Assembly: GCF_049060185.1 (NCBI RefSeq)
Contig: NZ_JBMEQO010000002.1
Source of the DNA: Nannocystis pusilla
GTDB lineage: Bacteria; Myxococcota_A; Polyangia; Nannocystales; Nannocystaceae
Reading direction: 5' to 3' (one strand)
DNA length: 64,000 bases
Below the pieces are notes generated by a model that did no database searches, was not told the origin of the DNA, and saw only the letters and a list, made by a program, of their open reading frames with translations. Below, in pieces: positions 975 to 57,200 of this stretch. The first letter of the stretch is position 1. Every line of letters begins with the position of its first letter. The position numbers and the translations under genes were made by a program.

Positions 975-1045
975 CACATGTCTCTCGGGACAGCCTCGCG
1001 CGACATCGTCCGCGTCGATCCATGCCTGTCCCCGAGAACAGGTCG
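975..1045. repeat. GGACATGTCC-family palindromic repeat cluster
   Basis: CACATGTCTCTCGGGACAGCC…CATGCCTGTCCCCGAGAACAGG. This is an internally inverted version of the 21-nt core GACATGTCCCGAGAGACAGCC seen at 28997. It is intergenic, lying after the MFS stop. Confidence 0.6.
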
Positions 1046-7545: not shown

Positions 7546-7616
7546 GCCAGCCCACTGCGCCCGCGACGAGCTCGCTCCGGCCGCGCCGTCCTGCCGCCGC
7601 TCCTTGCGCCCGCGTC

Positions 7617-8405
7617 TCACTCGGCCTCCCCGGTCAGCACCAGCAGCGCGCTCGCGTCGCGCAGCGGGCGGGAGGGCGGCGGGCTCAGCAGCATCGCGTC
7701 CGGCCCGCCTTCGCCGGGCGCGAACAGCCCGATCAGCGTCACCGGGCGGCCGCGGCGGTCGACCTCCACGTTCAGGCAGGCCTCGCGGAACGTCCCCGCG
7801 CGCAGCTCCGGCGGCACCGGCCAGGTCTCGACGCGCAGGCGCCCGCCGAGCAGCGCCAGCATGAAGCGGAACGCCCCGAGGTCGACGCACGCGTGGGCCA
7901 GCAGCGCCGCGCGGAGAAAGCCCGGGTAGAAGATCGTCGCCACCCCCAGGCCCTCGAACTCGTGGGTCGCCTCCGGGTCCTCGACCGCCACCACCACGTG
8001 CGGCGGCTTGCCCTTGCAGGCGCGCAGGATCGCCGTGCACACCAGGCGCGAGAACGCGTCGGTTTCGCCGTGGCCGCGCAGCGGCAGCACGATGATCGCG
8101 TCGGCCGCCGGCAGCCCGGCGGTGTCGGCGAAGAAGCGCGCCAGCGCCTCGACCCCGCCGCTCGCCGATCCCTGCCAGTACTTTTGGACATGTCCCGCGG
8201 GCAACTCGGCCAGCGCCGCCGCGACCGCCTCCACCGGCGCCGGCCCGATCAGCGTCAGCTCCGGCGCCGGCTCGGCCGCCGCGATCGCCCGCACCAGCCC
8301 GAGCGCCTCCGGCGTCCAGTGGATCACCACCCAGCGCGGCCTCGTCGGCCCCGGGAGCCCCGTTGCGAAGTCCTCCGCCGCCGCAGTGTCCCCGCGCTCC
8401 GTCAC
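7617..8405 (-). CDS. CASTOR/POLLUX-type RCK (TrkA-N-like) domain protein
   Basis: …AADAIIVLPLRGHGETDAFSRLVCTAILRA…HVVVAVEDPEATHEF…ACVDLGAFRFMLALLGG… aligns with the RCK region of CASTOR/DMI1-family channels. Stop at 7617. Start is tentatively GTG at 8405. Confidence 0.5.
   Translation of the reverse strand: MTERGDTAAAEDFATGLPGPTRPRWVVIHWTPEALGLVRAIAAAEPAPELTLIGPAPVEAVAAALAELPAGHVQKYWQGSASGGVEALARFFADTAGLPAADAIIVLPLRGHGETDAFSRLVCTAILRACKGKPPHVVVAVEDPEATHEFEGLGVATIFYPGFLRAALLAHACVDLGAFRFMLALLGGRLRVETWPVPPELRAGTFREACLNVEVDRRGRPVTLIGLFAPGEGGPDAMLLSPPPSRPLRDASALLVLTGEAE
8184..8198. repeat. Single GGACATGTCC unit inside the CASTOR-like CDS
   Basis: TTGGACATGTCCCGC encodes …AGHVQKYW… in frame. Confidence 0.5.
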
Positions 8406-9723: not shown

Positions 9724-11615
9724 GTGTCCGAGCGCGACCGCTTCCTCGCCTTCGCCGCCCGGGCCGTGCCCGTCGCGTTCGGCGCCCGGCCGGCGCCCGG
9801 CGAGCTCGCCGCCCACTGGCGGGCCGCGACCCAGGCGATCGGCGCCCGCCTCGTCCTCGCCTGCGCGCGCGAGCGCCTCGTCGAATTCGACCTTCAGGAC
9901 ATGTCCCTTCGCACATGTTCCTTGAGCCTCCCGCTGCGACGGCGCCGGGCCTTCGAGCTGCACGCCGCCGACCTCGACTGCGCCGACCTCCCCGACCTCC
10001 CCGACCTGCTCCCACGCCTCCTGCCCGCGCTCGCCCCCGCCGCCCGCGCCCGGATCGCGCGCGAGCTCGCCGACAGCCGCTGGAACCTCGCCCTCGCCCG
10101 CCTCGCCGCCGACCTGCGCCATCGGACATGCTCTGAAGGCCAGCCTTGGCCTGCCCCGCTCGACCCCGAGAACCTGGTCGTCGACGGTCACCCGTGGCAC
10201 CCGATGAGCAAGACCCGGCTCGGCCTGCGCGCCTGGGAGAACCTGCGCCACGGCCCCGACCTCCTGGCCCAGGCAGCGGTCCACGCCGTCGACGTCGCCG
10301 CCGAACACGCCCAGCTGGCCGAGCCGGCCCTCTACGCCGACCTCGCGCGCGCCCTGTTCCCGGCCCCGCCGCCTGGCCTGGTCCGCCTGCCCGTCCACGC
10401 CCTTCAGCTACGCCGCCTCCCGCGCCTGCTCGGCCCGCTGTGGGGCCGCGAGGTCCGCCCCGCCGGCCTGCCCCCGCTCCACGCGCGGGCCCTGCTCAGC
10501 CTGCGCACCGTCGCCCTCGCCGCGCCCGCGCTGCACCTCAAGCTCGCCGTCGACATCCACACCACCAGCGCGCGGCGCCAGGTCTCGCCCGCCTCGGTCC
10601 ACAACGGCCCGGCGATCGCCGCCCTCCTGGCCGCGATCCAGGCCGCCGATCCGCAGACCCGCCGCGGCCTGCAGATCCAGCCCGACCTCGCCGCCGCCGG
10701 CCTGCACCTCGCCACGGCCCCGCCGCCGGCCAGCTCGGCGTCGTCCTTCGCCCCGATCCGCTCCCCTCGCCCGACAGCTCCACGCCGACCTCGCCGCACC
10801 CGCCGACCCGTCCCGCGCGACGTCGACCGCCCCGGACTCGCCCGCCGGCACACCTGCCTCTTCCGACCTGTCCTCCGAGACATTACCCTCACGACATGCC
10901 CCCTGGGACCTGTCCCGCGCGACATATTCATTCAATCATGTCCGATCGCGCACCCCGCAGCTCGTCGTCTGCGCCGCCCTCGGCGAGCGCCGGCCCGGCG
11001 GCGACCTCCTGTTGCGCGAGCTCGCCGCCGACTACCCCGGCGATCCGCGCGCGCGTCTCGCGGCCTTCTTCCACGACTACCTCGACCTCCTCGTCCCCGC
11101 GGCCCTGCGCCTGCTCACCGCCCACGGCGTCGCCCTCGAGGCGCACCTGCAAAACACCCTCCTCGTCCACGCCGGGCGCCCTGCGGCTTCGTCGTCCGCG
11201 ACCTCGGCGGAGTGCGGCTCCACCGCGGGCGGCTGGCCGCGGCCGGCCATGCCCCCGCGCTCGCCCCCGACTCCTTCACCTTGACCTCCGACCTCGCCGA
11301 GGCTCAGGGCAAGCTGCTGCACACCCTCGTGCACGCCCACCTCGCGGCTGTGATCGGTTGGGTCGACGACGCCGGCGGCCCCGACCCCGACGTCCTGTGG
11401 CCCGCGGTGCGACGGATCTGCCAGCGCGAGTGGGATCGCTGGGCCGCCGATCCGGCGCTCGCGCGCGCGTGCGCCGACGATCGCGCGTTCTTCTTCGCGG
11501 CCACCTGTCGCAGCAAGGCGCTGCTGCGCATGCGCATCGACGAACGCGTCAGCGATTACGCCTATACCGAGGTCGCCAACGCGCTCGCCGAGGGGTACTC
11601 TTCCCCGCCGCATGA
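9724..11615 (+). CDS. IucA/IucC-family NIS siderophore synthetase with C-terminal FhuF-like domain; frameshifted
   Basis: …[17 protein letters not shown]…, …[29 protein letters not shown]…, …[16 protein letters not shown]…[11 protein letters not shown]… lie in three frames. The stop overlaps the downstream ATG (ATGA). Repeat units sit inside it at 9891..9925, 10124..10135 and 10866..10945. Confidence 0.7.
9891..9925. repeat. GGACATGTCC-family repeat (2 units) inside the IucA/IucC N-terminal codons
   Basis: CCTTCAGGACATGTCCCTTCGCACATGTTCC encodes …[11 protein letters not shown]…. Confidence 0.55.
10866..10945. repeat. GGACATGTCC-family repeat cluster (about 5 units) in the middle of the IucA/IucC gene
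   Basis: GACCTGTCCTCCGAGACATTACCCTCACGACATGCCCCCTGGGACCTGTCCCGCGCGACATATTCATTCAATCATGTCCGATCGCG. It coincides with a reading-frame switch. Confidence 0.65.
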
Positions 11616-20848: not shown

Positions 20849-20903
20849 GTACCTGTCCCCGCGTACCTGTCCCCGAGTACCTGTCCCCGACAACCTGCCC
20901 CGA
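20849..20903. repeat. 14-bp tandem repeat x4 (TACCTGTCCCCGNG) between gcvT and gcvH
   Basis: TACCTGTCCCCGCG / TACCTGTCCCCGAG / TACCTGTCCCCGAC / AACCTGCCCCGAAG. It ends 9 nt before the gcvH ATG. Confidence 0.8.
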
Positions 20904-24275: not shown

Positions 24276-26881
24276 ATGCGTAATCGTCTGTGTGGATGGT
24301 TCTCCACGCTCGCATGCATGGGCATAGGTTTCGGCGCCTTGGCGACGACCGCATGCGATTTCGTCTTCACCTGGAACGGCGACGGGGCCCCGGTCCTGGC
24401 TCGCCACCGGACGAGCCGGACGGACCGGACACGCCGGACGACGGCATCCCCGGCTCTCTGGCGAAGGAGAAGCTCCCGCCGCTGTTCGATCGGATCACCG
24501 GCAAGCCCGTCGAGCCCGACCTGATCGTCGACAACGACGCCGCGATCGCGCTCGGCAAGGCGCTGTTTTGGGACATGCAGAGCGGCAGCGACGGCCAGGC
24601 TTGTGCCAGCTGTCACTTCTCGGCCGGCGCCGACAACCGCTCGCGCAATCAGCTGACGCCGGGTCTCATCGGCGGCAACGGCAAGTTCGATCCGACCCGG
24701 ACCGGTGGCCAGGGCCCAACCTGCAGCTCGTCGCGGGCGACTATCCATTTCACGTCTTGAAGGACCCCAAGGACCGCGACTCGAAGGTGCTCTTCGACAC
24801 CGACGACGCCACCTCCTCGCAGGGCGTCCGGCGCGCCGACTTCGAGGCCGTCAAGCCCGGCGCGCTGGACGACAAGTGTGAGACCGTCCCCGATCCGCCG
24901 TTTCAGGTCGACGGCATCAACGTGCGCCGGGTCGAGCCGCGCAACGCCCCGACCGTGATCAACGCCGCCTTCAATTTCCGCAACTTCTGGGACGGCCGGG
25001 CCAACCGCTGGTTCAACGGCGTCGACCCGTTCGGCCGCCGCAACAAGGACGCCTTCATCCTCGAGGTCAAGGGCGGCAAGCCGGTCAAGCGCAAGCTCGA
25101 GATCGTCAACGGCTCGCTCGCCTCGCAGGCTGTCGGTCCGGTGCTCAGCCCGTTCGAGGCCTCGTGTCAGGGGCGCACGCTGCCCGACGTCGGCCGCAAG
25201 CTGGTGCGCCCGCCCACCGTCCCGCTCGCGTTCCAGAAGGTCCACCCCGACGATTCGGTGCTCGGCCCGCTGGCCGCGCCGAACAAGGGCTTGGAGACCA
25301 CCTACAGGAAGATGATCGAGGCCGCCTTCGCCGCCAAGCTGTGGCAGTCGGATCAATGGTTCGACGCCGACAAGAACCTGCTGAAGAACCCCGACTCCGT
25401 CCCGGCCGACCAGCGCTTCAGCCTGATGGAGATCAACTTCAGCCTGTTCTGGGGCCTCGCTATCCAGGCCTACGAGCGCACCCTCGTCTCCGACGACAGC
25501 CCGTTCGACAAGTACCGCGACGGCCGCGATGCCAAGGCGCTCGGCAAGCGCGAGCTCGCCGGCTTCGACGTCTTCCTCAATCAGGGCAAGTGCGTCAACT
25601 GCCACAAGACCGCCATGTTCACCGGCGCCTCGACCCTGCACCTCATCGACGAAGAGGAGGAGGACGGCCTGGTCGAGCGCATGCTGATGACCGAGGAGCA
25701 CTACCACTACGGCGTGCGCACCAACCCGCCGTTCAAGGTCCTGCCATTTTCGCAATGGAAGCCCGGCAAGGGCCAGCGCAGCCTCTCGATCGACGTCGAG
25801 GCCACCCCCACCGCCAAGAAGGACGACATCGTCCCCGGCAAGGCCGTCGGCCGGATCGTCCTCAGCAAGGTCGACGACGATGCCAGTTGCACCTACAAGC
25901 CCGAGACCATGACCTTCGGCGTCGACGACTCCGCCACCCGCGACGCCCGCATCGACGTCAAGCGGATCGACGGCAAGGGTTGCCCCTCGGCGCTGCGGAT
26001 CTCCGTCCTCGACGACGTCAAGGTCGCCAACGCCTGGCTCGACTTCGTCCTCGTCTACGACGACGAGGGCACCCTCGCGTTCGTCGGCCAGGGCCCCAGC
26101 ACCCTCGTCGAGCTGCGCCAGCCGGCCCTCTACGACAACGGCTTCTACAACATCGGCGTGCGGCCGACCGCCGAGGACATCGGCGTCGGCGGCGAGGACC
26201 CGTTCGGCTTCCCGCTGTCGTTCACCGAGCAGTACGTGCAGATGCTGCTCGGCAAGGACGCGCCCGACCCGTTCGAGGTCGACCCGTGCACCTTCGACGT
26301 CCCGTGGAACATCGTCGTCGACCGCCCGCTGTTCCCCGGCGGCTTCAGGGACAAGACCGACTGCAAGGACAAGCTCAAGACCCCGACCGGCGAGCCGAAG
26401 AACAACGCCGCCAACAAGCGCTACATCCAGCGCCTGCGGACCGCCGTCGGCGGCGCCTTCAAGACCCCGACCCTGCGCAACGTCCAGCTCACGGCCCCAT
26501 ACATGCATAACGGCGGCATGTCGACCCTCGAGCAGGTCGTCGAGTTCTACAACCGCGGCGGCGACTTCCACCGCAACCGCGAGCTCGACCCCGACATCAC
26601 CTTCCTCGACCTCGACGCCGAGCAGCGCAAGGATCTGGTGCTGTTCATGCAGTCGCTCACCGACCCGAACGTCGTCTACCAGCGGGCCCCGTTCGACCAC
26701 CCGCAGCTGTTCGTCCCCAACGGCCTCGACGACGTCGACGACGAGAAGCCGGACGACGGCCGCGCCGACGAGGACCTGTTCAAGGGAGACGGCCTCGAGA
26801 TCCCGCCGTCGGCGCCGCCGGCAGCCCCAAGCCGATCCGCACCTTCCTCAACCTCGAGGGCAACGACCTGCCCCCGCCCTG
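24276..26881 (+). CDS. Large di-haem cytochrome c peroxidase-family protein (about 860 aa) with signal/lipobox; about 3 frameshifts
   Basis: Two CxxCH motifs (CASCHF, CVNCHK). CCP-like motifs (…TPTLRNVQLTAPYMHNGGMSTLEQVVEFYNRGG…). Signal MRNRLCGWFSTLACMGIGFGALATTAC. True stop at 26881 (…LNLEGNDLPPP*). Confidence 0.7.
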
Positions 26882-26901
26882 ATCGACGCTGGCTTATACA
26901 T

Positions 26902-26940
26902 GTCTGCGAGGACATGTCCTAATGACATGTCCTCGCAGAC
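26902..26940. repeat. Near-perfect 18-bp-stem hairpin built from two inverted GGACATGTCC units
   Basis: GTCTGCGAGGACATGTCC-TAA-TGACATGTCCTCGCAGAC. It lies 20 bp after the CCP stop. Confidence 0.8.
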
Positions 26941-27058
26941 ATTCGGCGTCTCGCCCCGGCCGACCGCGCGCGGCTGCTCGCCCAAGCGCACGGCGCGCGG
27001 TCCGCTCCGACCGGCGCCGGCGGGTCGCGGTCTGCGCTAGGATGGATCCGGTCCGACG

Positions 27059-28143
27059 ATGCCGTCCGCGCTCCTCGCCGCAGTGCTCGCGTTCCAGGTG
27101 CCCGAGCCCCGTCTGCCGGCGCGATCGAGTGGCAGGCGCCGGCGGGCTGCCCCGATCGCCGCGCGCTGGCCGGGGCGATCGCCGGCCGCCTCGGCCGCGA
27201 GCCCGCCGCCGACGAGCTCTCCTGGTCGGCCGGGTCGAGCGGGACGGCGCCTCGCAGTACCACCTCGACCTGCGCCTCACCGTCGGCGGCCACGCCCAGA
27301 CCCGGCGCCTCAGCGCTCGGCGCTGCGCCGCGCTGGTCGACGCCGCCGCGCTCCTGGCCGCCCTCGCGCTCGACCCCACCGCCGCCGAGCGCGGTGGGCC
27401 GACCGACCGGATCGCGCCGGAGGTCGAGTCCACGCCGCCCGAGCCCGAGCCGCCTCCCGGCCCCGAGCCGGCCCCTGGCCCCGAACCCGCCCCACCCGTC
27501 GCCCTCGCCTCCGAGGCCGTCGTCGACGCCCCTGCCGCGCCGCTCCAACCCCCGAACCCGCGCCCGAGCCCGCCGTCGTCACCGCCGACGAGCCGCTCGC
27601 CCCGGCCCCGCCGCCGCGCAGGCGAGGTCCCGGCGCGCTGCTCCGCCTCTCGGCCGGCTTCGAGGTCGGCACCGTCCCCGCGCCGACCGCCGCGCTCGAG
27701 CTCGTCGCCGGCGTCCTGTGGCGGCGCGCTCGCCTCGAGTTCCACGGCGTCCACCTCGTCCCGCAGACCGAGGCGCGCCTGCCCAACGAGGTCCGCGTCT
27801 ACCTGCTCGGCGGCGGCGCCCGCGGCTGCGCTCGCCTGTCGCGCGGCCGCTTCGAGTTCCCTCTGTGCGGCGGCGCCGAGCTCGGCGGCCTGCGGGGCCA
27901 GGGTCGCGGCCCGGCGCGCGCGCGGCCACCGGCCTGTGGGCGGCGGTGCTCGTCTCGGCCGGCGCCACCTGGCGGTTTCACCGGCTGCTCGGCCTCAGCC
28001 TGGCCGCCCAGGGCCTCGTGCGCCTGGCCGCCCCGAGCTTCGACCTGGAGGACACCCCGGAGCCGGTCAACCTGTTCACCAGCGCGCCTGCGAGCCTGCG
28101 CCTGCTTCTCGGCCTCGAAGTGCGCCTCGGAGACCCGCGGTGA
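27059..28143 (+). CDS. Conserved hypothetical protein immediately upstream of the ECF sigma factor; frameshifted
   Basis: …IEWQAPAGCPDRRALAGAIAGRLGREPAADEL / [53 protein letters not shown]… and a C-terminal part ending …LGLEVRLGDPR* at 28143. Confidence 0.45.
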
Positions 28144-28181
28144 CGGAAACCGTCTCGGCCGGGGACAGCCCCCACAGCCCC

Positions 28182-28761
28182 ATGCTGCTCGCCACCGACC
28201 GCGAAGCGCGCTTCGCGCCATCTACGACCGAGAGTTCCACTTCGTGTGGTCGGCCGCGAAGTACTTCGGCGTCCCCGCGGCCGCCCGCGACGACGTGGTC
28301 CAGGACGTCTTCCTCACCGCCTACCGCCGCTTCGACCAGGTCCACTACCAGGTCTCGGCGCGCGCCTGGCTGTACGGCGTCACCCGCCGCGTCGCCTCGC
28401 ACTGGCACCGCGGCGTCGCCCGCCGGACCCGCCGGATCGCCGCCCTCGGCGACCTCACCGGCCACGTCGGCGAGGCCCTGCAGGAGCGCCACGACGCCGC
28501 CCGCCTGCTCGAGCGCCTGCTCGCCGGCCTGCCTCGCGGGACCCGCGAGGTGTGGAGCTGACCGAGCTGCTCGGCATGAGCGGCCCCGAGATCGCCGCCG
28601 AGCTCGAGCTGCCGCTCAACACCGTCTACTCGCGGCTCCGCCTCGCGCGCGCCCGCCTGCTCGAGCTGGCCGCCAGCCCCGAGCTGCTGGCCTCCGAGGT
28701 CGCCGAAAGCCGCCGCCGCGAGGCGCCCCGGCCGACGCCGCCTCGCGCACCTGGGCCGTGA
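28182..28761 (+). CDS. ECF (sigma-70 family) RNA polymerase sigma factor; about 2 frameshifts
   Basis: Region 2 (…IYDREFHFVWSAAKYFGVPAAARDDVVQDVFLTAYRRFDQ…). Region 4 (…ELLGMSGPEIAAELELPLNTVYSRLRLARARL…). Confidence 0.75.
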
Positions 28762-29665
28762 TGGTCCCGCTGTTCGGCCACGGCAAGCTCGCCACCGTGG
28801 CCGCCGCCTGGACCACCGCGCGCGCCGGCGTCATGACCACCCTCGTCGTCGCCGGTGCCACCACCGTCGTCGCGGTCGCCCCCGCCAGGCCCCGGGCCGG
28901 GCCACCGCCGCGCACGTCGAGGACCTGTCCGCAAAGCCAGCTGGCTCTCGTTCCAGCGGTGACATGCCTCGAGAGACTGCCGCGCCATCGCCCGCCGACA
29001 TGTCCCGAGAGACAGCCTCTCTTCCGCCCGACGACATGTCCCGAGAGACAGCCTCTCTCTCGCATTGTCATGTCTCGAGAGACCGCCTCGCCTCCGTCCG
29101 CCGACCTGTCTCGAAAGACAGCCCCGCCCCAGCCCGCCGGCACGTCGCGAGAAACAGCCGCGCCCCGCCCGACGCTGCCGGCCCGCAGCGGCCGCCCGCC
29201 CCGCCTCCCCGTTCTCGTTCTCCCACCTCCGCGCGCGGGTCTCTGCCCTCTGGACCCGCATCCCCTGTCGCCGGGCCCCGCGGCCGACCTGTCCCCGAGG
29301 ACAGCCTCTCCCGCGCCCGTCACCCGCCCTGCCTACGAGCAGCTGCTGTCCCGAGAGACATCCGCGCGCGCCCCGCCCGCGACGACCTCGCCCTCGAGGT
29401 CGGCCTCCTCGACCGCGCCCGCGCCCGCCTCGACGCCCGCGACCCGGCAGGCGCCGCCCAGCTCCTCGACGCCCACGCGCGCCAGTTCCCGCGCGGCGCC
29501 CTCGTCGACGCCCGCGAGGCTGCCGCTGTCGAGCTCCTGTGCCTGCAAGGCCGTCCCACCGACGCCGCGACCGCCGCCCAGCGCCTGGCCGCGCGCCTGC
29601 CCGACTCGGTGCTCGCCCGCCGCTTCGAGCGCTTCGTCTGCCCCGACGACGACGAGCCGCGCTGA
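28761..29665 (+). CDS. Membrane-anchored putative anti-sigma factor; the linker is occupied by a 36-bp tandem-repeat array
   Basis: ATG overlaps the sigma stop (TGATG). TM helix …GVMTTLVVAGATTVVAVAP…. C-terminal domain …DLALEVGLLDRARARLDARDPAGAAQLLDAHARQFPRGALVDAREAAAVELLCLQGRPTDA… in another frame. Confidence 0.5.
28921..29370. repeat. 36-bp tandem-repeat array (about 5 good units at 28961..29143, then degenerate units to about 29370)
   Basis: Units: GACATGCCTCGAGAGACTGCCGCGCCATCGCCCGCC / GACATGTCCCGAGAGACAGCCTCTCTTCCGCCCGAC / GACATGTCCCGAGAGACAGCCTCTCTCTCGCATTGT / CATGTCTCGAGAGACCGCCTCGCCTCCGTCCGCC / GACCTGTCTCGAAAGACAGCCCCGCCCCAGCC…. Further copies at 29287 (GACCTGTCCCCGAGGACAGCCTCTCC) and 29346. 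Confidence 0.85.
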
Positions 29666-29865
29666 GCTCCGAACCCGCAGAGATCTGCGCCGCAAGATCG
29701 CCGCAGACCGACGCGCTAGCCCGCTGGTCTGCGCGCTCCAGCTCCCGAGCCCCTCGCGGCGAAGCCGCGGAACACGCCGCGAGCACCCCGCCGCGCGTGA
29801 CCCTTGCGAGCGCGTACGAGTTTGCTGTCCGTGCCCTCACAGCCGCACCTCGAGCGCAGCCGAAC

Positions 29866-29888
29866 TCACCTGTCCTTCAGGACATCTT
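29866..29888. repeat. GGACA/TGTCC inverted unit (ACCTGTCC-TTCA-GGACATC)
   Basis: Intergenic. Confidence 0.55.
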
Positions 29889-30107
29889 TGCAATTCTCAA
29901 AGATCGCCCTGCCGGCCGGGGCCGGTGGCGGCCAGCTGTCCGCAGCGCCCGAGGTCGCCCGCAGGCCGCCGCGCCGCGCTCGCCGGACGGTCGCGCCTCT
30001 TGCGCTCACCGCTCCAAACGCGCTCCCAAGGCCCCGACCGTCGCTTTCGCCGGCGTGCGAGCCAGCGGCGGCTTGCCCTGCCCGGGGCCCCGCTCAATGC
30101 CTCGAGC

Positions 30108-30510
30108 ATGACGGCACCGACGAACCCGGAGCGTGACCGCGAGGTCGACGCGTTCTTGCACCTCCTCGGGCGCGCGCTGGTGGAAGGCGACGCCCTCACG
30201 GTGGCGACGCTGTACGAGACCCCGCCTTCGTGCTGGCGGACTCCGGGCGCAGGCCGTCGCCCGGCGCGAGGAGATCGAGCGCTTCTTCGCCGGCGCGCGG
30301 GCGCAGTACCTCGAGCGCGGCGTGACGATGACGCGCCCGGAGGTCGAGTCGCGCGAGTGGGTCGGCGACCGCGTGGTCCTCGTGCGCGTGGCCTGGCCCT
30401 ACATCGACCGCGACGGCCGCGAGGTCGGCCTCGAGCGCTCGACCTACGCCCTCCGCCGCGACGACTCGGGGGCCCTGCGGATCCGCGTCGTCATGCCCCA
30501 CCGCGACTGA
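30108..30510 (+). CDS. NTF2-like (SnoaL/DUF4440-like) small protein; 1 frameshift
   Basis: …EEIERFFAGARAQYLERGVTMTRPEVESREWVGDRVVLVRVAWPYIDRDGREVG…. Confidence 0.5.
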
Positions 30511-30529
30511 CCTGTCCCCTGGGACATCC
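30509..30529. repeat. GGACA/TGTCC inverted unit (ACCTGTCC-CCT-GGGACATCC)
   Basis: Lies between the convergent genes 30510 and 30544. Confidence 0.55.
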
Positions 30530-30543
30530 TCGCGTCTCCGCGT

Positions 30544-31031
30544 TCACTCGCTGGGCTCGTCGGGCGTGAACTTTCCCCACGAATAATCAGGGTGGTCCAC
30601 CGCGATCATGGTCCACGCCTCCACCTCGGTGTCCTCGTCGACCTCGAACAGCAGGCGGGCGCCGCCCGGATCGCCAGCATGCGACGGCCGTCTCGGTCGC
30701 GTCCGGTGGCGAAGGCCACCTGCTCCGCGGTGAGTCGCGCGACGACGGCGTCGTAGTCGGGCGCCTCCGGGCCGCCGAGGATCCACGCGTCGACCTCGCG
30801 CTCCCCGTCGGCTTCGAGCTGGAGCAGATAATCGTGATACAGCGTGTAGACGAGGTCCCCGTCGAAGAACAGCTCGAAGTTGCCGTAGCGCCAGACCTCG
30901 AGGCCGCCGCCGCTGGCCATGCGCTCGCTGGGTGGGCCGAGCCGCTCGAGGACGGTGGCCCGGTCGTCGCCGGGTCGCACCCCGCCGAGCTGACCTTCGA
31001 CCACGAGGCTGCGGATCGAGAACGCGATCAT
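30544..31031 (-). CDS. Hypothetical protein; 1 frameshift
   Basis: Two coding-like fragments (30606..31031 and 30544..31050). Confidence 0.35.
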
Positions 31032-31078
31032 CGTCCGTCGACGCTACCACGGAGCCGCGAGCGCGCCGCGACCGGCCT

Positions 31079-31330
31079 TCAGAACCGCAGCGCGCAGCCG
31101 CCTGGATCGCACTGCACCCGCTTCCGCTTGAGCCGCATCGCCGTGATCGACGCCGTGAGGAACAGCGCGCTCGAGATCAGCAGCAGCGACACGGTCACTC
31201 CCAGGCCCTGACGGGTCAGGCGCAGCTCGGCCTCCTCGCGCGGGCTCACCGGCTCGCGCATCGTCACCGCCGCGACCACCCTCCGGCCGCGAACCCGAGC
31301 GCCGGCACCCCGAACGCCGCGAGCCACCTG
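31079..31330 (-). CDS. Hypothetical small membrane protein
   Basis: C-terminal TM segment …GVTVSLLLISSALFLTASITAM…. Weak support. Confidence 0.25.
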   Translation of the reverse strand, partial: QVARGVRGAGARVRGRRVVAAVTMREPVSPREEAELRLTRQGLGVTVSLLLISSALFLTASITAMRLKRKRVQCDPGGCALRF

Positions 31331-31564
31331 GATCTTCGCCGCCATCTCCTCGTCGGTGGGCGTCGGCGGTGACGCGGCGACATCGGGCCGCGGCGGGGTG
31401 GGCGGCGGGCACGGCTCCCCTGCAGGCACGCAGCCGCCCGCGCACGTCGTCGCCCCCTCCGACAGGACTCCGGCGGCTGCAGCAGCAAAGCGACCGAGAC
31501 CAGCGCGGCGACGACCATGCCGCCCAGAGTACTCTATCGGCGGCCGCCCGTCACCGGTCCCTCG

Positions 31565-31630
31565 GAGCATGCCCTCACGGCCATGTCCTGACAGACATGT
31601 CCCCGACGACATGTCGCCGGGGACATCCAG
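31565..31630. repeat. GGACATGTCC-family repeat cluster (about 5 units, 12 to 14-bp period)
   Basis: GAGCATGCCCTCACGGCCATGTCCTGACAGACATGTCCCCGACGACATGTCGCCGGGGACATCC. Intergenic. Confidence 0.75.
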
Positions 31631-31636
31631 ACCGCC

Positions 31637-34600
31637 TCACACCGCGTCGCTGACGCTGGCGAAGTGGAAGTCCTTCGCCACCAGCGGCGGCACCACCGCG
31701 ACCATCCCGTCGCCGGCCGTGCGCTCCGGCTTGCCGATCGCCACCAGGTTCTTCAGCAGCGCCGCCGGGCTCTCGTTGTAGCGCATGTTCTTGACCGGCC
31801 GCGCGATCTTCCCCTGCTCGATGAGGAACGTGCCGTCGCGGGTCAGCCCGGTCGCCAGGATCTGCCGCGGGTCGAGCATGCGGTTGTAGAAGAAGCGCGT
31901 CACCAGCACCCCGCGCTCGACCCCGCGGACCAGCTCGAGCAGGTCCTTGCCCTCGGCCGGGTCGGCGGGCGCGAGGAAGATCGAGCGCGGCCCCGGCAGC
32001 GCCGGCTTGCTCTGCTTGTGGGCCCAGAACCGGCTGTACGCCAGCGCCTTCAGCATCCCCCGATCGATCCACGTCGTCGCCGGCAGCGGCAGCCCATCGC
32101 CTGCGAACGGGATCGACGGCCAGCGCGGGTCGGCCGGGTCGGAGCGCAGCGTCACCCGCGGGTCGAACAGCGCCTCGCCGATCGCGTTGCCGCCCGGGCG
32201 GCTGAAGAAGCTGCGGCCCTCGTCGGCCGCGCGGGCCTGCAGCGCCGACACCAGGAAGCCGAGCAGGTCGGCCACCGCCTGCGCCTCGAGCACCACGGTG
32301 TACGCCCCCGGCGCCAGCGCGTCCGCGCCCTGGCTCGACATCGTCGCCTTGTCGGCCGCCCGCCGCGCCAGCGCCGGCGCGTCGAGCTCGGCCAGGCGGT
32401 GCGACGCGCCGCCGGCCCAGCCGCTGCCCTTGCCGTCGGGTGTGCGCATCGTCGTCGTCAGCGACGCCTCGGTCGCCGCGTGGAGCGCGAACAGACCTGT
32501 CCGATTGGCCAGGACAGTCACCCCGTCCTCGTGCTCGACGATCCCCGACGCCACCAGCTTGGCCTCGCGCGCCACCTTCAGCACCCGCGCCACCACCTCG
32601 GTGCGCCCCTCGGGTCCGACCTCCGCCGTCTTCGCGTCACGGGCCGCCACCTTCGCGTACTGCTGCGGCCCCAGCGGCGGCTCGTGCTCCGGGTCCTTCG
32701 GCGCCAGCTTGGCCAGCGCCTCCGCCTCGCGCACCAGCGCCTGCAGCGACGCCGCGTCGCGCCCGGTGCCGGACACCGTCGCCACCCGCCCGTCCTTGGC
32801 CGCAGTCACCGACACCTCGAAGCGCGCCGCCTCACCGGACGTCGTCGGCGCGCCGGCGGCGAACCGCAGGTACGCCGTGCGCCGCGCGGTCACTCGCAGG
32901 CTCACGTCCTCGAAGCTCGCGGCGGACAGCGCCGACTTGATCAGCGCCCGCGCCTCGGCCGGGCTCAAGGAGACTGCGCGCTCACTTGTCACCCCGGTGT
33001 TGAGGATGTTGACGACGAAGCGCGCCGGCGGGCACCCGTGGCTGACCGCGTTGCTCTGCGACGGCTCGCCCTTGCCGTCGCTCATGCTGCCGCCGAGGCG
33101 GTACGTGTCTGTCCCTCCGAGCATGTCACACGAGCTCCAGAATTCGACCGTGTTGGCCTGATACGCCACGTCTCGCAGCGGCCGCGTCAGCCGCCCGTGC
33201 TTGATCTCCCAGAAGAACTGGCCCGAGAACTGGAAGTTGTAGCGCTGCTGGTCGATCGACCAGCTGCCGCGGCCCGTGATCAGCACCCCGTCGTCGGTCG
33301 CCGAGATCAGGTCCTCCGTCGTGTAGCCCTCGCTGCCCGGCTGCAGGCTCACGTTCGGCATGCGCTGGAACGGCACGCTCGCGTAGCTGTCGGCGTAGCT
33401 GCAGCCCCGGCTCGCCGGCTCGCCGGCCGCCGCCGCCAGGTCGCGCGTCGTCTGCCAGCCGACGAACGTCCCCTTCTTCACCAGGTCCCAGCGCTGCGAC
33501 GCCACCGCCTCGTCGTCCCACGCGGTCGTCGCCAGACCGCCGGGCTGCGTGCGGTCGGCCGCGAGGTTCACGATCTCGCTGCCGATCTTGACCTTGCCCG
33601 CCTTGTCGGGCCCGAGGAAGCTCGTGCCGGCGTAGTTCGCCTCGTAGCCGAGCGCCCGGTCGAGCTCCGTCGAGTGGCCGATGCTCTCGTGGATCGTCAG
33701 CCACAGGTTCGACGGCGCCAGGATCGCGTGCTTCTTGCCCGGCACCGCCGGCGCCGCGTGCAACTTCTGCAGCGCCTCCTCGGCGATCTTCGGCGCGCTG
33801 CCGACCAGGTCGGCCGCGGTCACGTGCTCCCAGCCGGCCAGCATCGGCGCCACCTCGTGGTCGCGCCCCGCGAAGCGACCGCGCCGGCGATCGATCGCCG
33901 TCGCGGTCAGCCCCGGAATCACGCGGAAGAAGATCTGGTGGACCCGCGAGCCCTCGCTCGTCATCACCAGCTTCTCCTCGCGCACGCACGCCACGTTCGC
34001 GTCCACGTGCGCCACCCCGGGCACCGCCAGCGCCGCGCGGGCCGCCGCCAGCAGCAGCTCCGCCTTCTCGGCCGGCGCGATCGAGAACGGGTCGACCTGG
34101 AACGGCGACACCCAGCCGCCCTGCAGCACCGGCGCCGGCGCCAGCGTCACCGGCTGCGGCATCAGCAGCGCGCTCTGGCGGGCCATCGCCACCGCCGCCT
34201 TCGCGATCCCCTCGACCGCCTTCGCGCTGCGCTCCGCCGTCGCCGCGAAGCCCCAGCCGCCGTCCGCGATCACCCGCAGACCGACCCCGTAATCCTCGCT
34301 GCGACCGATCCCGCTCACGTGGTCGTCGCGCACGCCGACCCGCTCGCGGCGCATCAGCACCAGGCGCGCGTCGGCGTAGCTCGCCCCGGCCTTCGTCGCC
34401 GCCTCCAGCGCAGTGCGCAGCAGATGCTCGTCGGCCAGCAAGCGGCTCGCGGCCAGCAGGGCCATGCCCGCGTCTGCGCTCGCGGGCGCCGACTTCGGCG
34501 CCGGGATCCGGCTCGGCGGCGGGCCGGCCCAGGCCGCGCGCGAGCCGTGGACCAGCGCCTCGGCCCCACAGAGCCCCGTGAGCGCGAGGAAGGAGCGGCG

Positions 34601-34660
34601 AGAGCTCGACATCGGCGCGATGATACCCATCCCGCCCGCGGCGCCGCGCCCGAAATGCAC
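31637..34660 (-). CDS. Secreted TldD/PmbA (peptidase U62) double-module metalloprotease with twin-arginine signal
   Basis: Intact 1007-aa ORF. Tat motif SRRSFLALTG. Two TldD/PmbA-like modules (…HESIGHSTELDRALGYEANYAGTSF…; …GVLVTRFFYNRMLDPRQIL…). Confidence 0.8.
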   Translation of the reverse strand: MHFGRGAAGGMGIIAPMSSSRRSFLALTGLCGAEALVHGSRAAWAGPPPSRIPAPKSAPASADAGMALLAASRLLADEHLLRTALEAATKAGASYADARLVLMRRERVGVRDDHVSGIGRSEDYGVGLRVIADGGWGFAATAERSAKAVEGIAKAAVAMARQSALLMPQPVTLAPAPVLQGGWVSPFQVDPFSIAPAEKAELLLAAARAALAVPGVAHVDANVACVREEKLVMTSEGSRVHQIFFRVIPGLTATAIDRRRGRFAGRDHEVAPMLAGWEHVTAADLVGSAPKIAEEALQKLHAAPAVPGKKHAILAPSNLWLTIHESIGHSTELDRALGYEANYAGTSFLGPDKAGKVKIGSEIVNLAADRTQPGGLATTAWDDEAVASQRWDLVKKGTFVGWQTTRDLAAAAGEPASRGCSYADSYASVPFQRMPNVSLQPGSEGYTTEDLISATDDGVLITGRGSWSIDQQRYNFQFSGQFFWEIKHGRLTRPLRDVAYQANTVEFWSSCDMLGGTDTYRLGGSMSDGKGEPSQSNAVSHGCPPARFVVNILNTGVTSERAVSLSPAEARALIKSALSAASFEDVSLRVTARRTAYLRFAAGAPTTSGEAARFEVSVTAAKDGRVATVSGTGRDAASLQALVREAEALAKLAPKDPEHEPPLGPQQYAKVAARDAKTAEVGPEGRTEVVARVLKVAREAKLVASGIVEHEDGVTVLANRTGLFALHAATEASLTTTMRTPDGKGSGWAGGASHRLAELDAPALARRAADKATMSSQGADALAPGAYTVVLEAQAVADLLGFLVSALQARAADEGRSFFSRPGGNAIGEALFDPRVTLRSDPADPRWPSIPFAGDGLPLPATTWIDRGMLKALAYSRFWAHKQSKPALPGPRSIFLAPADPAEGKDLLELVRGVERGVLVTRFFYNRMLDPRQILATGLTRDGTFLIEQGKIARPVKNMRYNESPAALLKNLVAIGKPERTAGDGMVAVVPPLVAKDFHFASVSDAV
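32497..32525. repeat. GGACAGGT variant inverted unit inside the TldD/PmbA CDS
   Basis: GACCTGTCCGATTGGCCAGGACAGTC. Confidence 0.4.
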
Positions 34661-35197
34661 GCCCCTGCAGCCGCCCCGCGGACCCGCGCCACGCGGAGGA
34701 TCCCCTGCCCGGCGGCAGCTCCGGGTCCTCCGGCCCCGACTGTCCCCGTACTGGTGCCTCGGTCATCGCCCCCAGCGCGACCCACGCCGGTGAGCAGCCC
34801 CTGCGGAGATCCCCGCGTCCGGTCCGCGCTCCCGACGCCGGCCCCCGCGCCGGCCCGCAATGCATCGACCCTCCGTCCTCCCCGCAATCACCACAGCCGC
34901 CCGGACTCCCCGCGAACCTCGCCGCAAGCCCTCCTGTCGCCCTCTCGCGGCCTCTCCTCGCATTCGCCCGCGCCCCGGCCCTCCGCGCATTCGTCTGCGC
35001 CCGTCGCCTGGCGACCCCGCCTCCGTCTCGCTGCTCGTGCCGGACACATGCTCGTCGCGAGCGCGTCGACGACGCGACATCGGACCCCCGCATGCGGGGC
35101 CCTCGGCGCTCCCCCGACGATGGATCCGAACATCCCCGTCTCGATCGCTTCGGTCGGGTACTTGCCCTCATGAGGGTGATCGTGCGTTCATCGCCCC

Positions 35198-46519: not shown

Positions 46520-46780
46520 CGCGCCGTCCCTCGCGCCGCATCGGTGCTTCGCCCGCGCTCCGCAGCCGTCGCCTCGCTCGATCGCGCCGCCCCACGTCAG
46601 TTCGTCGCCGTCCCTCGGTCGCGCCGCCTTACGTAACTCTTCGCCTCGCTCGCGCCGCCCCAGTCCGTCGCCCGCCCTCGCTTGCGCCGCCCCGGTCGGT
46701 CCGTCGCCCGCCCTCGCTCGCGCCGCCCCAGTCCGTCCGTCGCCCGCCCTCGCTCGCGCCGCCCCACGCCCCATGTCCCT
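46520..46780. repeat. 36–40-bp GC-rich tandem repeat array x7 (GTCGCCCGCCCTCGCTCGCGCCGCCCCAGTCCGTCC)
   Basis: Direct tandem copies. The best three lie at 46657..46770; more diverged copies lie upstream. No unique spacers. Confidence 0.8.
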
Positions 46781-46850
46781 CAGGACATGCCCATCCGGCC
46801 ATGCCCATCCCGACATGTCCGTTCCGACATGTCCTCTCGCCCTCTCGCGA
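46775..46850. repeat. 14-bp tandem repeat x5 (CATGYCCNTYCSGR)
   Basis: CATGTCCCTCAGGA / CATGCCCATCCGGC / CATGCCCATCCCGA / CATGTCCGTTCCGA / CATGTCCTCTCGCC. Confidence 0.85.
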
Positions 46851-57040: not shown

Positions 57041-57200
57041 GCGGCCCGTCGTCGACTGCATCGTCTAAAAACTCACCGCTCGCGACAGCCCGCGACGGAC
57101 CGCATGCGCGGCGTCGTCGACTGCATCCTCCACAACCCACCGTTCGTGACAGTCGACGCCCACCGCCTCGGGCGGCCGTCGTCGACAGGAGTGATTCGTC

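What the first reader, a model, noticed from the sequence alone, without database searches (positions are those of the whole stretch)
28921..29370. 36-bp tandem array (GACATGTCCCGAGAGACAGCC + 15-nt variable tail) embedded between the TM helix and C-terminal domain of an anti-sigma-like gene
Five well-conserved plus about three degenerate direct repeats lie head-to-tail. Each is a 21-nt conserved core that itself contains the GACATGTC palindrome and a TGTC-N6-GACA inverted repeat, followed by a 15-nt C/T-rich tail. The array sits exactly where the periplasmic linker of the putative anti-sigma factor should be. The gene starts at 28761, translationally coupled to the ECF sigma gene; its TM helix is upstream of the array and its conserved C-terminal domain is downstream at 29370–29665 in another frame. 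Either a repeat element has expanded inside a gene while keeping an open frame (it translates to T/C/P/R/E-rich 12-aa repeats), or the gene is disrupted. An inverted copy of the same 21-mer occurs at 975.
Basis: partly seen in the sequence, partly recalled or inferred. Interest (0 to 1): 0.72.

Follow-up and report, generated by a model that had tools for sequence, protein, structure and literature searches.

The report
Genus-wide DNA motif inside sigma-factor linker
The 36-bp array is real and encodes a floppy, length-variable linker in one fused membrane-anchored sigma-factor gene of Nannocystis, but what is conserved is a short DNA motif that otherwise marks the ends of genes across this genus, and the apparent gene breakage is most likely a sequencing-error artefact.

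Summary
The array is real: TRF finds period 36 and 5.9 copies, and I count nine units in 28922-29363. The window is Nannocystis pusilla. In at least 15 homologues the "sigma gene" and "anti-sigma gene" form one ORF: ECF sigma, TM helix, variable linker, conserved C-terminal domain. The frame breaks here are 1-nt deletions. Against another N. pusilla strain, all 23 frameshifting indels in CDS are deletions, spread over 11 of 17 genes, which points to assembly error rather than gene decay.

Unit number varies: three more units than the other strain, and a 27-bp period in N. bainbridge. It always changes in multiples of three, so this is not an on/off switch.

The 21-nt core is 1.5 units of a genus-wide motif (CATGTCC / GGACATGTCC, strict 14-bp phase). 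That motif has 38 sites in the window against about 2 expected. It is dense after stop codons, nearly absent from divergent promoter spacers, and rare in CDS.

In the linker the nucleotides are conserved, not the peptide chemistry: Thr is ACA in 18 of 19 units (background 2%; 0 of 82 in the rest of the gene).

No hairpin covariation, fold signal or Rfam match was found. The motif's function is unknown; a sequence-specific DNA-binding factor is my best guess.

The parts
28140..29665 (+). One fused gene: ECF sigma (sigma2 + sigma4), juxtamembrane segment, TM helix, repeat linker, C-terminal helical domain. In this assembly it is broken by at least 7 small deletions.
   Evidence: Orthologues P0001-P0006 and P0008-P0018 are single ORFs of 365-497 aa covering all parts. 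The GTG start overlaps the upstream gene's TGA (GTGA). The stop is TGA at 29663-29665.
28223..28423 (+). Sigma-70 region 2 (in a different frame from region 4 in this assembly).
   Evidence: Pfam PF04542, E = 4.5e-08.
28555..28659 (+). Sigma-70 region 4.
   Evidence: Pfam PF08281, E = 1.3e-08. The frame switch at 28554 is a 1-nt G deletion relative to L001.
28827..28880 (+). Transmembrane helix GVMTTLVVAGATTVVAVA.
   Evidence: Translation. Nearly invariant in 16 homologues. The AF2 model of the orthologue has a helix at 183-212.
28922..29159 (+). Head-to-tail array of seven units (u0-u6). Each is a 21-nt core GAC-(A/C)TG-TCC-NNN-GRG-ACA-GCC plus a 13-18-nt variable C/T-rich tail. It reads D-[M/L]-S-R-E-T-A in phase 2 for u0-u3 and phase 0 for u4-u6.
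   Evidence: Units u4-u6 are absent from the other N. pusilla strain. The region shows no GC3 codon bias.
29286..29306 (+). Isolated unit u7, GACCTGTCCCCGAGGACAGCC (DLSPRTA). It contains an exact TGTCC-N4-GGACA palindrome.
   Evidence: Conserved in L001, L002 and L006.
29343..29363 (+). Isolated unit u8, CTGCTGTCCCGAGAGACATCC (LLSRETS), directly before the C-terminal domain.
   Evidence: The orthologous unit keeps TGTCC and ACA in N. exedens. N. punicea has lost both halves together (TG-GCG and ACC).
29369..29662 (+). Conserved C-terminal all-helical (TPR-like) domain with two invariant Cys residues, presumed to be extracytoplasmic.
   Evidence: Weak Pfam TPR_14 hit. Conserved in 16 homologues. 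AF2 pLDDT is about 94 with 5 helices. No sequence relative in the PDB.
27059..28143 (+). Upstream co-oriented gene of about 365 aa and unknown function. Its stop overlaps the sigma start by 4 nt. It is also frameshifted in this assembly.
   Evidence: Gene calls in L001, L002, L004, L005 and L006. Indels listed. No Pfam hit.
26897..26945 (.). Dispersed-motif copies at the stop codon of the cytochrome-c peroxidase-like gene. Two units with complementary spacers form a long perfect palindrome.
29869..29886 (.). Dispersed-motif copy (CCTGTCCTTCAGGACATC) about 200 nt downstream of the fused gene's stop.
   Evidence: Conserved in L001 at 11540.
31568..31628 (.). 14-bp-phased motif array just beyond the stop of the minus-strand tldD/pmbA genes. 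This is an example of the intergenic family.
   Evidence: The heptamers and their phase are conserved in six Nannocystis genomes while the spacers diverge.
976..995 (.). It is an intergenic motif copy starting 26 nt after a stop codon.

Best explanation
Shown:
- The window is Nannocystis pusilla.
- The 'sigma gene plus anti-sigma gene' is one gene for a membrane-anchored ECF sigma factor. Its order is sigma2, sigma4, a short juxtamembrane segment, one TM helix, a disordered linker, then a conserved helical C-terminal domain.
- The 36-bp array encodes that linker.
- The 21-nt core of each unit is an in-frame copy of 1.5 units of a Nannocystis-wide motif. That motif is the heptamer CATG(T/C)CC, which in full form is the palindrome GGACATGTCC, repeated at a strict 14-bp phase.
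- Elsewhere the motif lies just downstream of stop codons and between cistrons. It is almost absent from promoter-only spacers and is rare in coding DNA.
- In the linker the nucleotides of the motif are conserved, not the chemistry of the peptide.
- Unit number and period differ between strains and species, always in multiples of three.

Inferred:
- The frame breaks in this window are most likely assembly deletion errors.
- The motif entered, or arose in, a linker that tolerates almost any sequence. It was amplified by replication slippage or unequal recombination.
- It is kept intact by the same force that maintains the intergenic copies.

My best guess for that force, at roughly 35-40%, is sequence-specific recognition of double-stranded DNA by a probably dimeric factor. 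This factor would load cooperatively on phased arrays at the ends of transcription units, acting as a boundary, roadblock/termination or topology element. On that reading the linker copies are extra binding sites that the protein tolerates. Whether they also regulate this sigma factor is unknown.
For: Identity and architecture:
- P0007 is identical to the window's frame-2 ORF and is annotated as N. pusilla.
- 17 of 19 homologues are single ORFs carrying PF04542 and PF08281 as well as the TM, linker and C-terminal parts.
- Synteny is conserved in five species.
- In the AF2 model the TM helix is 183-212, the linker 211-349 has pLDDT below 50, and the C-terminal domain has pLDDT about 94.

Assembly errors:
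- All 23 frameshifting CDS indels are deletions in the window and none are insertions.
- 20 are 1 nt long, 13 of those in homopolymers.
- They hit 11 of 17 genes.

Dispersed motif:
- TGTC-N6-GACA occurs 25 times against 0.6 expected. GACATGTC occurs 23 times against 0.67. TGTCC-N4-GGACA with one mismatch or fewer occurs 38 times against 2.
- Pair spacings are 14 bp (23 pairs), 28 bp (12) and 42 bp (6).
- Density per kb is 16.9 in convergent spacers, 6-11 in tandem spacers, 0.75 in divergent spacers (none in 11 of 12) and 0.31 in CDS.
- About 60% of genes with a downstream spacer carry it, 0-45 nt after the stop.
- It is present in every Nannocystis genome sampled.
- Heptamers and phase are conserved in an orthologous spacer while the spacer sequences diverge.

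Nucleotide-level constraint in the linker (21 units, 5 species):
- Leu is CTG in 17 of 17 (background 48.5%).
- Ser is TCC in 19 of 20 (background 14%).
- Thr is ACA in 18 of 19 (background 2.0%).
- Codon 4 uses 11 different codons.
- Codon 5 is E, G, R or K but always -RG.
- In the same gene's conserved core Thr is ACC 74, ACG 8 and ACA 0, while 4-fold sites differ 14-23% between species.
- N. punicea lost both motif halves of one unit together.

Variation in unit number: three units differ between two N. pusilla strains. The period is 27 bp in N. bainbridge.

Sequence recognition rather than pairing:
- There are no compensatory changes. G at the partner position occurs in 12.9% of sites when position 5 is T and 13.6% when it is C, and there are 41 C·A combinations against 9 C-G.
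- The array RNA fold has z = 0.12.
- There is no Rfam hit.
Against: - No binding protein, transcript end or any experiment is available, so the function of the dispersed motif is inferred only from its distribution and substitution pattern.
- Lack of covariation does not fully exclude a hairpin if many copies are decaying from a palindromic master sequence.
- The motif also lies between gcvT and gcvH, which probably form an operon, so it cannot be an obligate terminator.
- In more distant relatives (L129, L130) the linker units with ACA codons exist while intergenic copies are sparse in the small flanks available. The linker copies may therefore not depend on the intergenic family.
- Shared descent of units inflates the codon statistics. 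The argument rests on the contrast between conserved motif positions and saturated neighbouring positions.
- The assembly-error conclusion comes from comparison with another strain, not from reads.
Confidence: 0.75

Rival explanations
1. Peptide-level repeat. The linker carries a functional short linear peptide motif, D-[L/M]-S-x-E-T-A (for example a protease or partner-binding site in the periplasm). On this view its resemblance to the intergenic DNA motif is coincidental, because L-S-x-E-T is naturally encoded by cTG-TCn-nnn-GAG-ACn.
For: All nine units read in the same peptide register once the frameshifts are allowed for. L/M, S and T are conserved in five species and in the distant homologues P0014 and P0017.
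Against: - Peptide selection does not explain the exclusive use of rare ACA (2%), CGA (2.4%) and GCA (1.5%), nor TCC (14%) and CTG for every Leu.
- Codon 5 varies between E, G, R and K while keeping -RG, and codon 4 is free.
- The same nucleotide motif, including its preferred CCGAG-type spacers, is 19-fold enriched in non-coding DNA.
- An unrelated ORF carries the motif in another frame, read as VSKDT.
- The homologues P0016 and P0018 function without any units.
Confidence: 0.07
2. REP-like element acting as RNA or single-stranded DNA. The motif copies would be short extragenic palindromes that form stem-loops (UGUCC-N4-GGACA). These would stabilise or terminate transcripts, or be mobilised by a transposase. 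The linker array would be an in-frame invasion, as with Rickettsia palindromic elements.
For: - The location at gene 3' ends and between cistrons, with exclusion from promoter spacers, matches the REP/BIME niche.
- The core is palindromic, and some copies form long perfect palindromes, for example 26897-26945.
- Canonical hairpin-plus-U terminators are absent at these gene ends, with 3 found against 4.6 in shuffles and none at a gene end.
- In-frame palindromic elements are known in Rickettsia (PMC10969869).
Against: - There are no compensatory substitutions, and C·A mismatches outnumber C-G pairs 41 to 9.
- A 5-bp stem is weak.
- The array RNA folds no better than shuffles, z = 0.12.
- There is no Rfam family.
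- Arrays are direct 14-bp repeats of a heptamer with diverged spacers at orthologous sites, which fits maintenance in place rather than transposition.
- Units are 14-21 bp with no terminal repeats or target duplications.
Confidence: 0.15
3. Uptake-signal-like sequence. The motif would be a genus-specific tag preferentially taken up or recombined, as with DUS and USS. It would be maintained by biased transfer (molecular drive) wherever it is tolerated, meaning 3' spacers and poorly constrained protein segments such as this linker.
For: - The motif is genus-restricted and has a high density, about 0.9 heptamers per kb.
- It shows a preference for terminator-side positions.
- Drive would explain nucleotide conservation inside a CDS without any local function.
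- Uptake sequences in coding DNA sit at poorly conserved positions and shape local peptides (PMC2817400).
Against: - Strict 14-bp phasing in tandem arrays is not a feature of known uptake sequences.
- Only about 15% of copies lie in ORFs, against 35-65% for USS and DUS (PMC2817400).
- Nothing is known about sequence-specific DNA uptake in Nannocystis.
Confidence: 0.1
4. The gene really is disrupted (a pseudogene), or the array is an assembly collapse or expansion artefact.
For: The window sequence as given has at least 7 frame breaks across the gene. Repeat arrays are prone to mis-assembly, and unit u3 is 34 nt long instead of 36.
Against: - The same deletion-only pattern affects 11 of 17 neighbouring genes, including housekeeping genes.
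- The array is present with intact frames in at least 8 independently assembled genomes.
- The exact copy number in this strain remains unverified.
Confidence: 0.05
5. Contingency locus. Slippage in the array would switch or tune ECF sigma signalling between isolates.
For: Copy number differs by three units between two N. pusilla strains and differs among species.
Against: Periods are 36 and 27 bp, both multiples of three, so no frame switching occurs. Linker length ranges from about 20 to 170 aa among apparently functional homologues, which argues that length matters little.
Confidence: 0.04

Closest known systems
ECF sigma factors with fused C-terminal extensions (e.g. ECF41, ECF42, ECF238/CorE2; Casas-Pastor et al. 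2021, PMC7826278)
   Same: The regulatory part is on the same polypeptide as sigma2 and sigma4, and there is no separate anti-sigma gene.
   Different: The described extensions are soluble: SnoaL-like, TPR, or short and Cys-rich. Here the extension contains a TM helix, a long disordered repeat linker and a presumably periplasmic helical domain, so it looks like a membrane anti-sigma factor fused to its sigma. The ECF group was not assigned.
Rickettsia palindromic elements (in-frame repeat insertions in protein-coding genes; reviewed in PMC10969869)
   Same: A dispersed palindromic DNA repeat family is found translated in-frame inside otherwise conserved genes, in regions the protein tolerates.
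   Different: RPEs are MITE-like elements of about 100-150 bp inserted once per site. Here the units are 14-21 nt, tandemly amplified, positionally conserved across a genus and mainly located at gene 3' ends.
REP/BIME extragenic palindromes of enterobacteria
   Same: They are short, high-copy palindromic repeats clustered after stop codons and between cistrons, and excluded from promoters.
   Different: REPs are imperfect hairpins of about 35 nt in alternating orientation. Here a heptamer or decamer forms direct 14-bp-phased arrays with no evidence of base-pairing constraint. No GTAG motif or associated transposase was examined.
DNA uptake sequences (Neisseria DUS, Pasteurellaceae USS; PMC2817400)
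   Same: Both are lineage-specific short motifs at about 1 per kb, common in terminator-side positions, and able to sit in poorly constrained coding positions where they dictate local peptides.
   Different: Uptake sequences do not form phased tandem arrays and are far more frequent in coding DNA. No uptake data exist for Nannocystis.
Membrane-bound anti-sigma factors of Myxococcota with a C-terminal 'LAxEvALLdrAR' helical domain (e.g. stand-alone homologue P0019)
   Same: They share the TM helix, low-complexity linker and C-terminal domain arrangement, and the C-terminal domain is homologous.
   Different: In this Nannocystis clade that protein is fused to the sigma factor, and the linker carries the DNA-motif units.

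Membership tests
ECF (group 4) sigma-70 factor | Sigma-70 region 2 and region 4 domains present, with no region 1 or 3 | tested here: met
   PF04542 and PF08281 hit the window translations. TIGR02937 sigma70-ECF scores 62.6 bits against a cutoff of 42.9 on the orthologue P0001. No other sigma regions were hit.
   17 of 19 homologues are one continuous ORF through the junction, reading ...RRREAPPADAASRTWAVMVPLFG.... The window's stop at 28759-28761 follows a 1-nt deletion.
   There are no Pfam hits on the juxtamembrane/TM segment (protein 3). The AF2 model shows only helices with modest confidence there.
ECF sigma with fused regulatory C-terminal extension | The extension lies on the same polypeptide and is conserved across the group | tested here: met
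   The alignment of 16 homologues has an invariant juxtamembrane W, a TM helix and a C-terminal domain.
ECF sigma with fused regulatory C-terminal extension | Assignment to a defined ECF group (ECF41, ECF42, ECF238 and so on) by group HMM | not testable with these tools
   ECF Hub group models are not available here. NCBIfam gives only generic hits below the subfamily cutoffs.
Contingency (phase-variable) repeat locus | Copy-number change shifts the frame or the promoter spacing | tested here: not met
   Unit periods are 36 bp (N. pusilla) and 27 bp (N. bainbridge), and strain differences are whole units.
Contingency (phase-variable) repeat locus | Copy number differs between isolates | tested here: met
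   The window has three more units than strain CP185339. RBIL2 has about 7 units and P0003 has 3.
REP/BIME-type extragenic palindromes | Extragenic, located at 3' ends or between cistrons, high copy number | tested here: met
   Densities per kb are 16.9 (convergent), 6-11 (tandem), 0.75 (divergent) and 0.31 (CDS).
REP/BIME-type extragenic palindromes | A stem-loop maintained by base pairing | tested here: not met
   There is no association between paired positions, with 41 C·A against 9 C-G. The fold z-score is 0.12.
RPE/MITE-like in-frame elements | In-frame presence of a dispersed repeat inside conserved genes | tested here: met
   Seen in the sigma linker in at least 8 genomes and as a second case in the L107 ORF in another frame.
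RPE/MITE-like in-frame elements | A discrete element of about 100-150 bp with terminal inverted repeats and target duplications | tested here: not met
   Units are 14-21 nt and tandemly phased, with no TIR or TSD structure.
Intrinsic (Rho-independent) terminator | A GC-rich hairpin followed by a U-tract | tested here: not met
   No terminator-like site coincides with the motif arrays. There were 3 hits against 4.6 in shuffles over 20 kb.
DNA uptake sequence | Preferential uptake of DNA carrying the motif | not testable with these tools
   This needs transformation or uptake assays.
Known RNA family (Rfam) | A match to a covariance model | tested here: not met
   No hits at E of 1 or below in 26000-32500.

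The most novel reading that the evidence does not exclude
The CATGTCC/GGACATGTCC arrays could be a genus-specific, sequence-defined 'end-of-gene' code. A dedicated DNA-binding factor would read them to set transcription-unit boundaries in an organism that lacks classical terminators. The copies kept inside the sigma-factor linker would then act as a regulated intragenic attenuator, setting how much full-length sensor-coupled sigma is made relative to truncated product. That would be one DNA stretch encoding both a protein linker and a transcriptional control site.
Probability: 0.12. Interest if true: 0.85.

Novelty: new variant of a known kind. Interest (0 to 1): 0.6.

Why it matters
Three reasons.

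1. It corrects the annotation. This locus is one fused, membrane-anchored ECF sigma factor, an architecture conserved across Nannocystis. It is not a sigma/anti-sigma pair and probably not a pseudogene. The source assembly carries systematic 1-nt deletions that will break many gene calls.

2. It reveals a motif family that I did not find described in three full-text searches: about 0.9 heptamers per kb, a strict 14-bp phase, a position at the ends of transcription units, and a distribution restricted to the genus. It is a concrete lead for how 12-13-Mb, 72% GC myxobacteria that lack classical terminators define gene ends.

3. The linker is a clear natural example of a nucleotide motif overriding codon preference inside a protein-coding region. 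The rare codon ACA is used in 18 of 19 units and in 0 of 82 Thr codons elsewhere in the same gene. That makes it a simple system for testing dual-use coding experimentally.

Tried and rejected
- RNA structure or riboswitch: the array folds no better than shuffles (z = 0.12), there is no Rfam hit, and there are no compensatory substitutions in about 480 kb of Nannocystis DNA.
- Classical terminators: none coincide with the motif arrays.
- Replication-polar motif (KOPS- or Chi-like): the heptamer is strongly strand-biased, 112 to 29. However, the window has a GC skew of -0.13, and shuffles already predict 58 to 23. Across other loci the heptamer simply tends to lie on the C-rich strand, 25 loci against 9. 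I attribute the polarity mostly to skew-driven decay of a palindromic core.
- Cyanobacterial hits in the genome scan: these are (CCCCATG)n 7-bp tandem repeats and are unrelated.
- Pseudogene: rejected as the leading reading because of the deletion-only, genome-neighbourhood-wide indel pattern.
- Protein search with the repeat segment alone: it returned nothing, not even the source protein, so it is uninformative.
- tblastn frame mapping: it ran through low-complexity frames and was not useful. DNA alignment was used instead.
- Ancestral gene boundary inside the linker: unlikely, because stand-alone homologues such as P0019 already have the TM, linker and C-terminal domain in one protein.
- Literature: full-text searches combining Nannocystis with 'palindromic', 'intergenic', 'repetitive' or 'terminator' found nothing relevant.
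Full report
**1. Observation**

Tandem Repeats Finder reports an array at 28961-29171 with period 36, 5.9 copies and 72% matches. The 21-mer GACATGTCCCGAGAGACAGCC matches five times with 3 mismatches or fewer, all inside the array, against none in shuffles.

Reading the sequence gives nine units. Units u0-u6 lie head-to-tail between 28922 and 29159, with spacings of 39, 36, 36, 34, 36 and 36 nt. Units u7 (29286-29306) and u8 (29343-29363) are separate.

The array lies between a hydrophobic helix (28827-28880) and a conserved C-terminal domain (29369-29662). Its central 14-mer is inverted but its flanks are direct.

**2. The gene**

A search with the conceptual protein found 19 homologues, nearly all named ones from Nannocystis. 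P0007 is exactly the window's broken frame-2 ORF and comes from a 12.69-Mb N. pusilla contig.

Seventeen of the 19 homologues are single ORFs of 365-497 aa. They carry Sigma70_r2 and Sigma70_r4_2 and also cover the TM helix, the linker and the C-terminal domain. The locus is syntenic in N. pusilla CP185339, N. exedens, N. bainbridge, N. radixulma and N. punicea. So there is no separate anti-sigma gene. This is a fused, membrane-anchored ECF sigma factor, preceded by a conserved unknown gene of about 365 aa whose stop overlaps its start (GTGA).

An AlphaFold model of the intact N. pusilla orthologue has three relevant features:
- a TM helix at 183-212;
- a linker at 211-349 with pLDDT below 50;
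- a five-helix C-terminal domain with pLDDT about 94.

The C-terminal domain has two invariant cysteines and no sequence relative in the PDB.

ECF sigma factors with fused C-terminal extensions are known, but the described extensions are soluble (PMC7826278).

**3. The frame breaks**

The frame plot shows coding frames switching inside many genes. I aligned 19 kb of the window to the 94-95% identical strain CP185339. The result:
- There are 23 frameshifting indels inside CDSs.
- All 23 are deletions in the window and none are insertions.
- 20 are 1 nt long, 13 of those in homopolymers.
- They fall in 11 of 17 genes, including gcvT and tldD/pmbA.

The breaks in the sigma gene (28212, 28233, 28554, 28726, 28879) are of this kind. 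The apparent TGA/ATG 'coupling' at 28759-28763 follows the loss of one C from a C-run. This is the signature of an uncorrected assembly, not of gene decay, although only reads can prove it. Once the shifts are allowed for, all nine units read D-[M/L]-S-R-E-T-A.

**4. The core belongs to a genus-wide DNA motif**

The core is strongly enriched across the window:
- TGTC-N6-GACA occurs 25 times against 0.6 expected.
- GACATGTC occurs 23 times against 0.67.
- TGTCC-N4-GGACA with one mismatch or fewer occurs 38 times against 2.

The family is best described as the heptamer CATG(T/C)CC, which in full form is the palindrome GGACATGTCC. It occurs in direct arrays with a strict 14-bp phase: 23 pairs at 14 bp, 12 at 28 bp and 6 at 42 bp. 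Each 21-nt array core equals 1.5 such units (GACATGTCCCGAGA|GACAGCC).

In five annotated orthologous loci the + strand density per kb is as follows:

| Region type | Density per kb |
|---|---|
| Convergent spacers | 16.9 |
| Tandem spacers | 6-11 |
| Divergent spacers | 0.75 (none in 11 of 12) |
| CDS | 0.31 |

About 60% of genes with a downstream spacer carry the motif. The first copy lies 0-45 nt after the stop and sometimes overlaps the TGA. The motif also lies between gcvT and gcvH.

A genome-collection scan found the 14-bp-phased form in every Nannocystis genome. The other hits were unrelated cyanobacterial (CCCCATG)n repeats.

In the orthologous spacer downstream of tldD, six genomes conserve the ACATG-CC blocks and their phase while the spacers diverge.

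Full-text searches found no description of this motif.

**5. Nucleotides are conserved in the linker, not peptide chemistry**

Across 21 units in five species, compared with background codon usage:

| Position | Observed in units | Background |
|---|---|---|
| Codon 2 (Leu) | CTG in 17 of 17 | 48.5% |
| Codon 3 (Ser) | TCC in 19 of 20 | 14% |
| Codon 6 (Thr) | ACA in 18 of 19 | 2.0% |
| Codon 4 | 11 different codons | not applicable |
| Codon 5 | E, G, R or K, always -RG | not applicable |

The other two units have GCA (Ala) and ATA (Ile) at codon 6, so the final A is kept.

Within the same gene, the conserved core uses Thr as ACC 74, ACG 8 and ACA 0, and all ACA codons of the linker are inside units. 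Four-fold sites in the core differ 14-23% between species, so there has been time to drift.

In N. punicea the one unit that lost TGTCC has also reverted its Thr to ACC. The array has no GC3 bias.

An unrelated lipoprotein-like ORF (L107) carries two copies in another frame, read as VSKDT-VSKDS, with the period stretched to 15 bp. The distant fused homologues P0016 and P0018 have plain Pro/Ala/Thr linkers without units, while P0014 and P0017 have two units each, again with ACA and CGA.

**6. How the motif is read**

A base-paired stem is not supported:
- When TGTCC becomes TGCCC the partner does not compensate. G at the partner position occurs in 12.9% of sites when position 5 is T and in 13.6% when it is C. 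There are 41 C·A combinations against 9 C-G.
- The array RNA folds no better than shuffles, z = 0.12.
- There is no Rfam match.
- Classical hairpin-plus-U terminators are not found at these gene ends.

The strong strand bias of the heptamer, 112 to 29, is largely explained by the window's GC skew of -0.13.

Four features point to recognition of double-stranded sequence by a protein that loads on arrays at the ends of transcription units: independent half-sites, a palindromic decamer, strict phasing, and positional conservation with free spacers. This is an inference, which I hold at about 35-40%. The rivals are a REP-like RNA or single-stranded-DNA element, and an uptake-signal-like sequence maintained by drive (PMC2817400).

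**7. Variation**

The window has three more units (u4-u6) than the other N. pusilla strain. RBIL2 has about seven units, P0003 has three, and N. bainbridge uses a 27-bp period. Among homologues the linker ranges from about 20 to 170 aa.

All changes are multiples of three, so this is linker-length polymorphism generated by slippage. It is not a phase-variable switch.

**8. Verdict**

The gene model and the disruption reading are wrong.

The closest analogues are in-frame Rickettsia palindromic elements (PMC10969869), REP/BIME elements, and uptake sequences in coding DNA. This case differs from all of them in unit size, 14-bp phasing and genus-wide positional conservation. I rate it a new variant of a known kind, of moderate to high interest, mainly because of the undescribed motif family and the clear dual constraint on a coding linker.

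Noticed in passing
window 1-64000: There is a very strong, uniform GC skew of about -0.13 (C 26,220 against G 20,108) whatever the gene orientation. Other Nannocystis loci reach |0.10-0.16|. This is unusually high for a bacterium and shapes the decay of the motif (the CATGCCC and CCTGTCC variants).
   Followed up: partly
window 18328-39564 (aligned to L001): The assembly carries systematic 1-nt deletions: 23 frameshifting deletions and no insertions in CDS over 19 kb. As a result the separate tldD and pmbA genes (449 and 543 aa in relatives) read as one 1042-aa ORF at 31637-34762.
   Followed up: yes
window 46567-46768: A second, unrelated 36-bp tandem array (5.8 copies, consensus CGTCGCCGCCCTCGCTCGCGCCGCCCCACGTCAGTT) lies in an intergenic region directly next to a five-unit CATGYCC array at 46772-46834.
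   Followed up: no
window 54493-54660 and 56997-57186: Two tandem repeats with periods of 66-67 bp (2.6 and 2.9 copies, 77-86% matches) lie about 2.4 kb apart. They were not examined.
   Followed up: no
window 26897-26945: Two motif units with mutually complementary spacers form a perfect palindrome with arms of about 19 bp (ACATGTCTGCGAGGACATGTC ... GACATGTCCTCGCAGACAT). It overlaps the stop codon of the di-haem cytochrome c peroxidase-like gene.
   Followed up: partly
window 20849-20903: A (GTACCTGTCCCCGA)x4 array at 90% identity lies between the gcvT stop and the gcvH start. Motif copies occupy this intercistronic spacer in all five other species, so the motif is not an obligate terminator.
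   Followed up: partly
L107 7210-7245 (ORF 6827-7831): An unrelated lipoprotein-like ORF carries two adjacent motif copies (TGTCTCCAAGGACA-C-TGTCTCGAAGGACA) in-frame at a 15-bp period, read as VSKDT-VSKDS. This is a different frame from the one used in the sigma linker.
   Followed up: partly
window 27059-28143; L001 8801-9898; L127 8959-9960; L128 3095-4309: A conserved gene of about 330-400 aa with no Pfam domain always precedes the fused sigma gene, even in distant homologues, and often overlaps it by 4 nt. It is a likely functional partner of unknown role.
   Followed up: no
L006 (N. punicea), codons for DQLLAPETS in gene 10001-11293: In the unit orthologous to u8, the Ser-to-Ala change destroys TGTCC and the Thr codon is ACC instead of ACA. 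Both halves of the motif were lost together.
   Followed up: yes
L008-L126, loci with GC below 0.6 (cyanobacteria): The 3-heptamer pattern also picks up (CCCCATG)n 7-bp tandem repeats in many filamentous cyanobacteria (Nostoc, Microcoleus, Oscillatoria, Tolypothrix). These are unrelated to the Nannocystis 14-bp form.
   Followed up: partly
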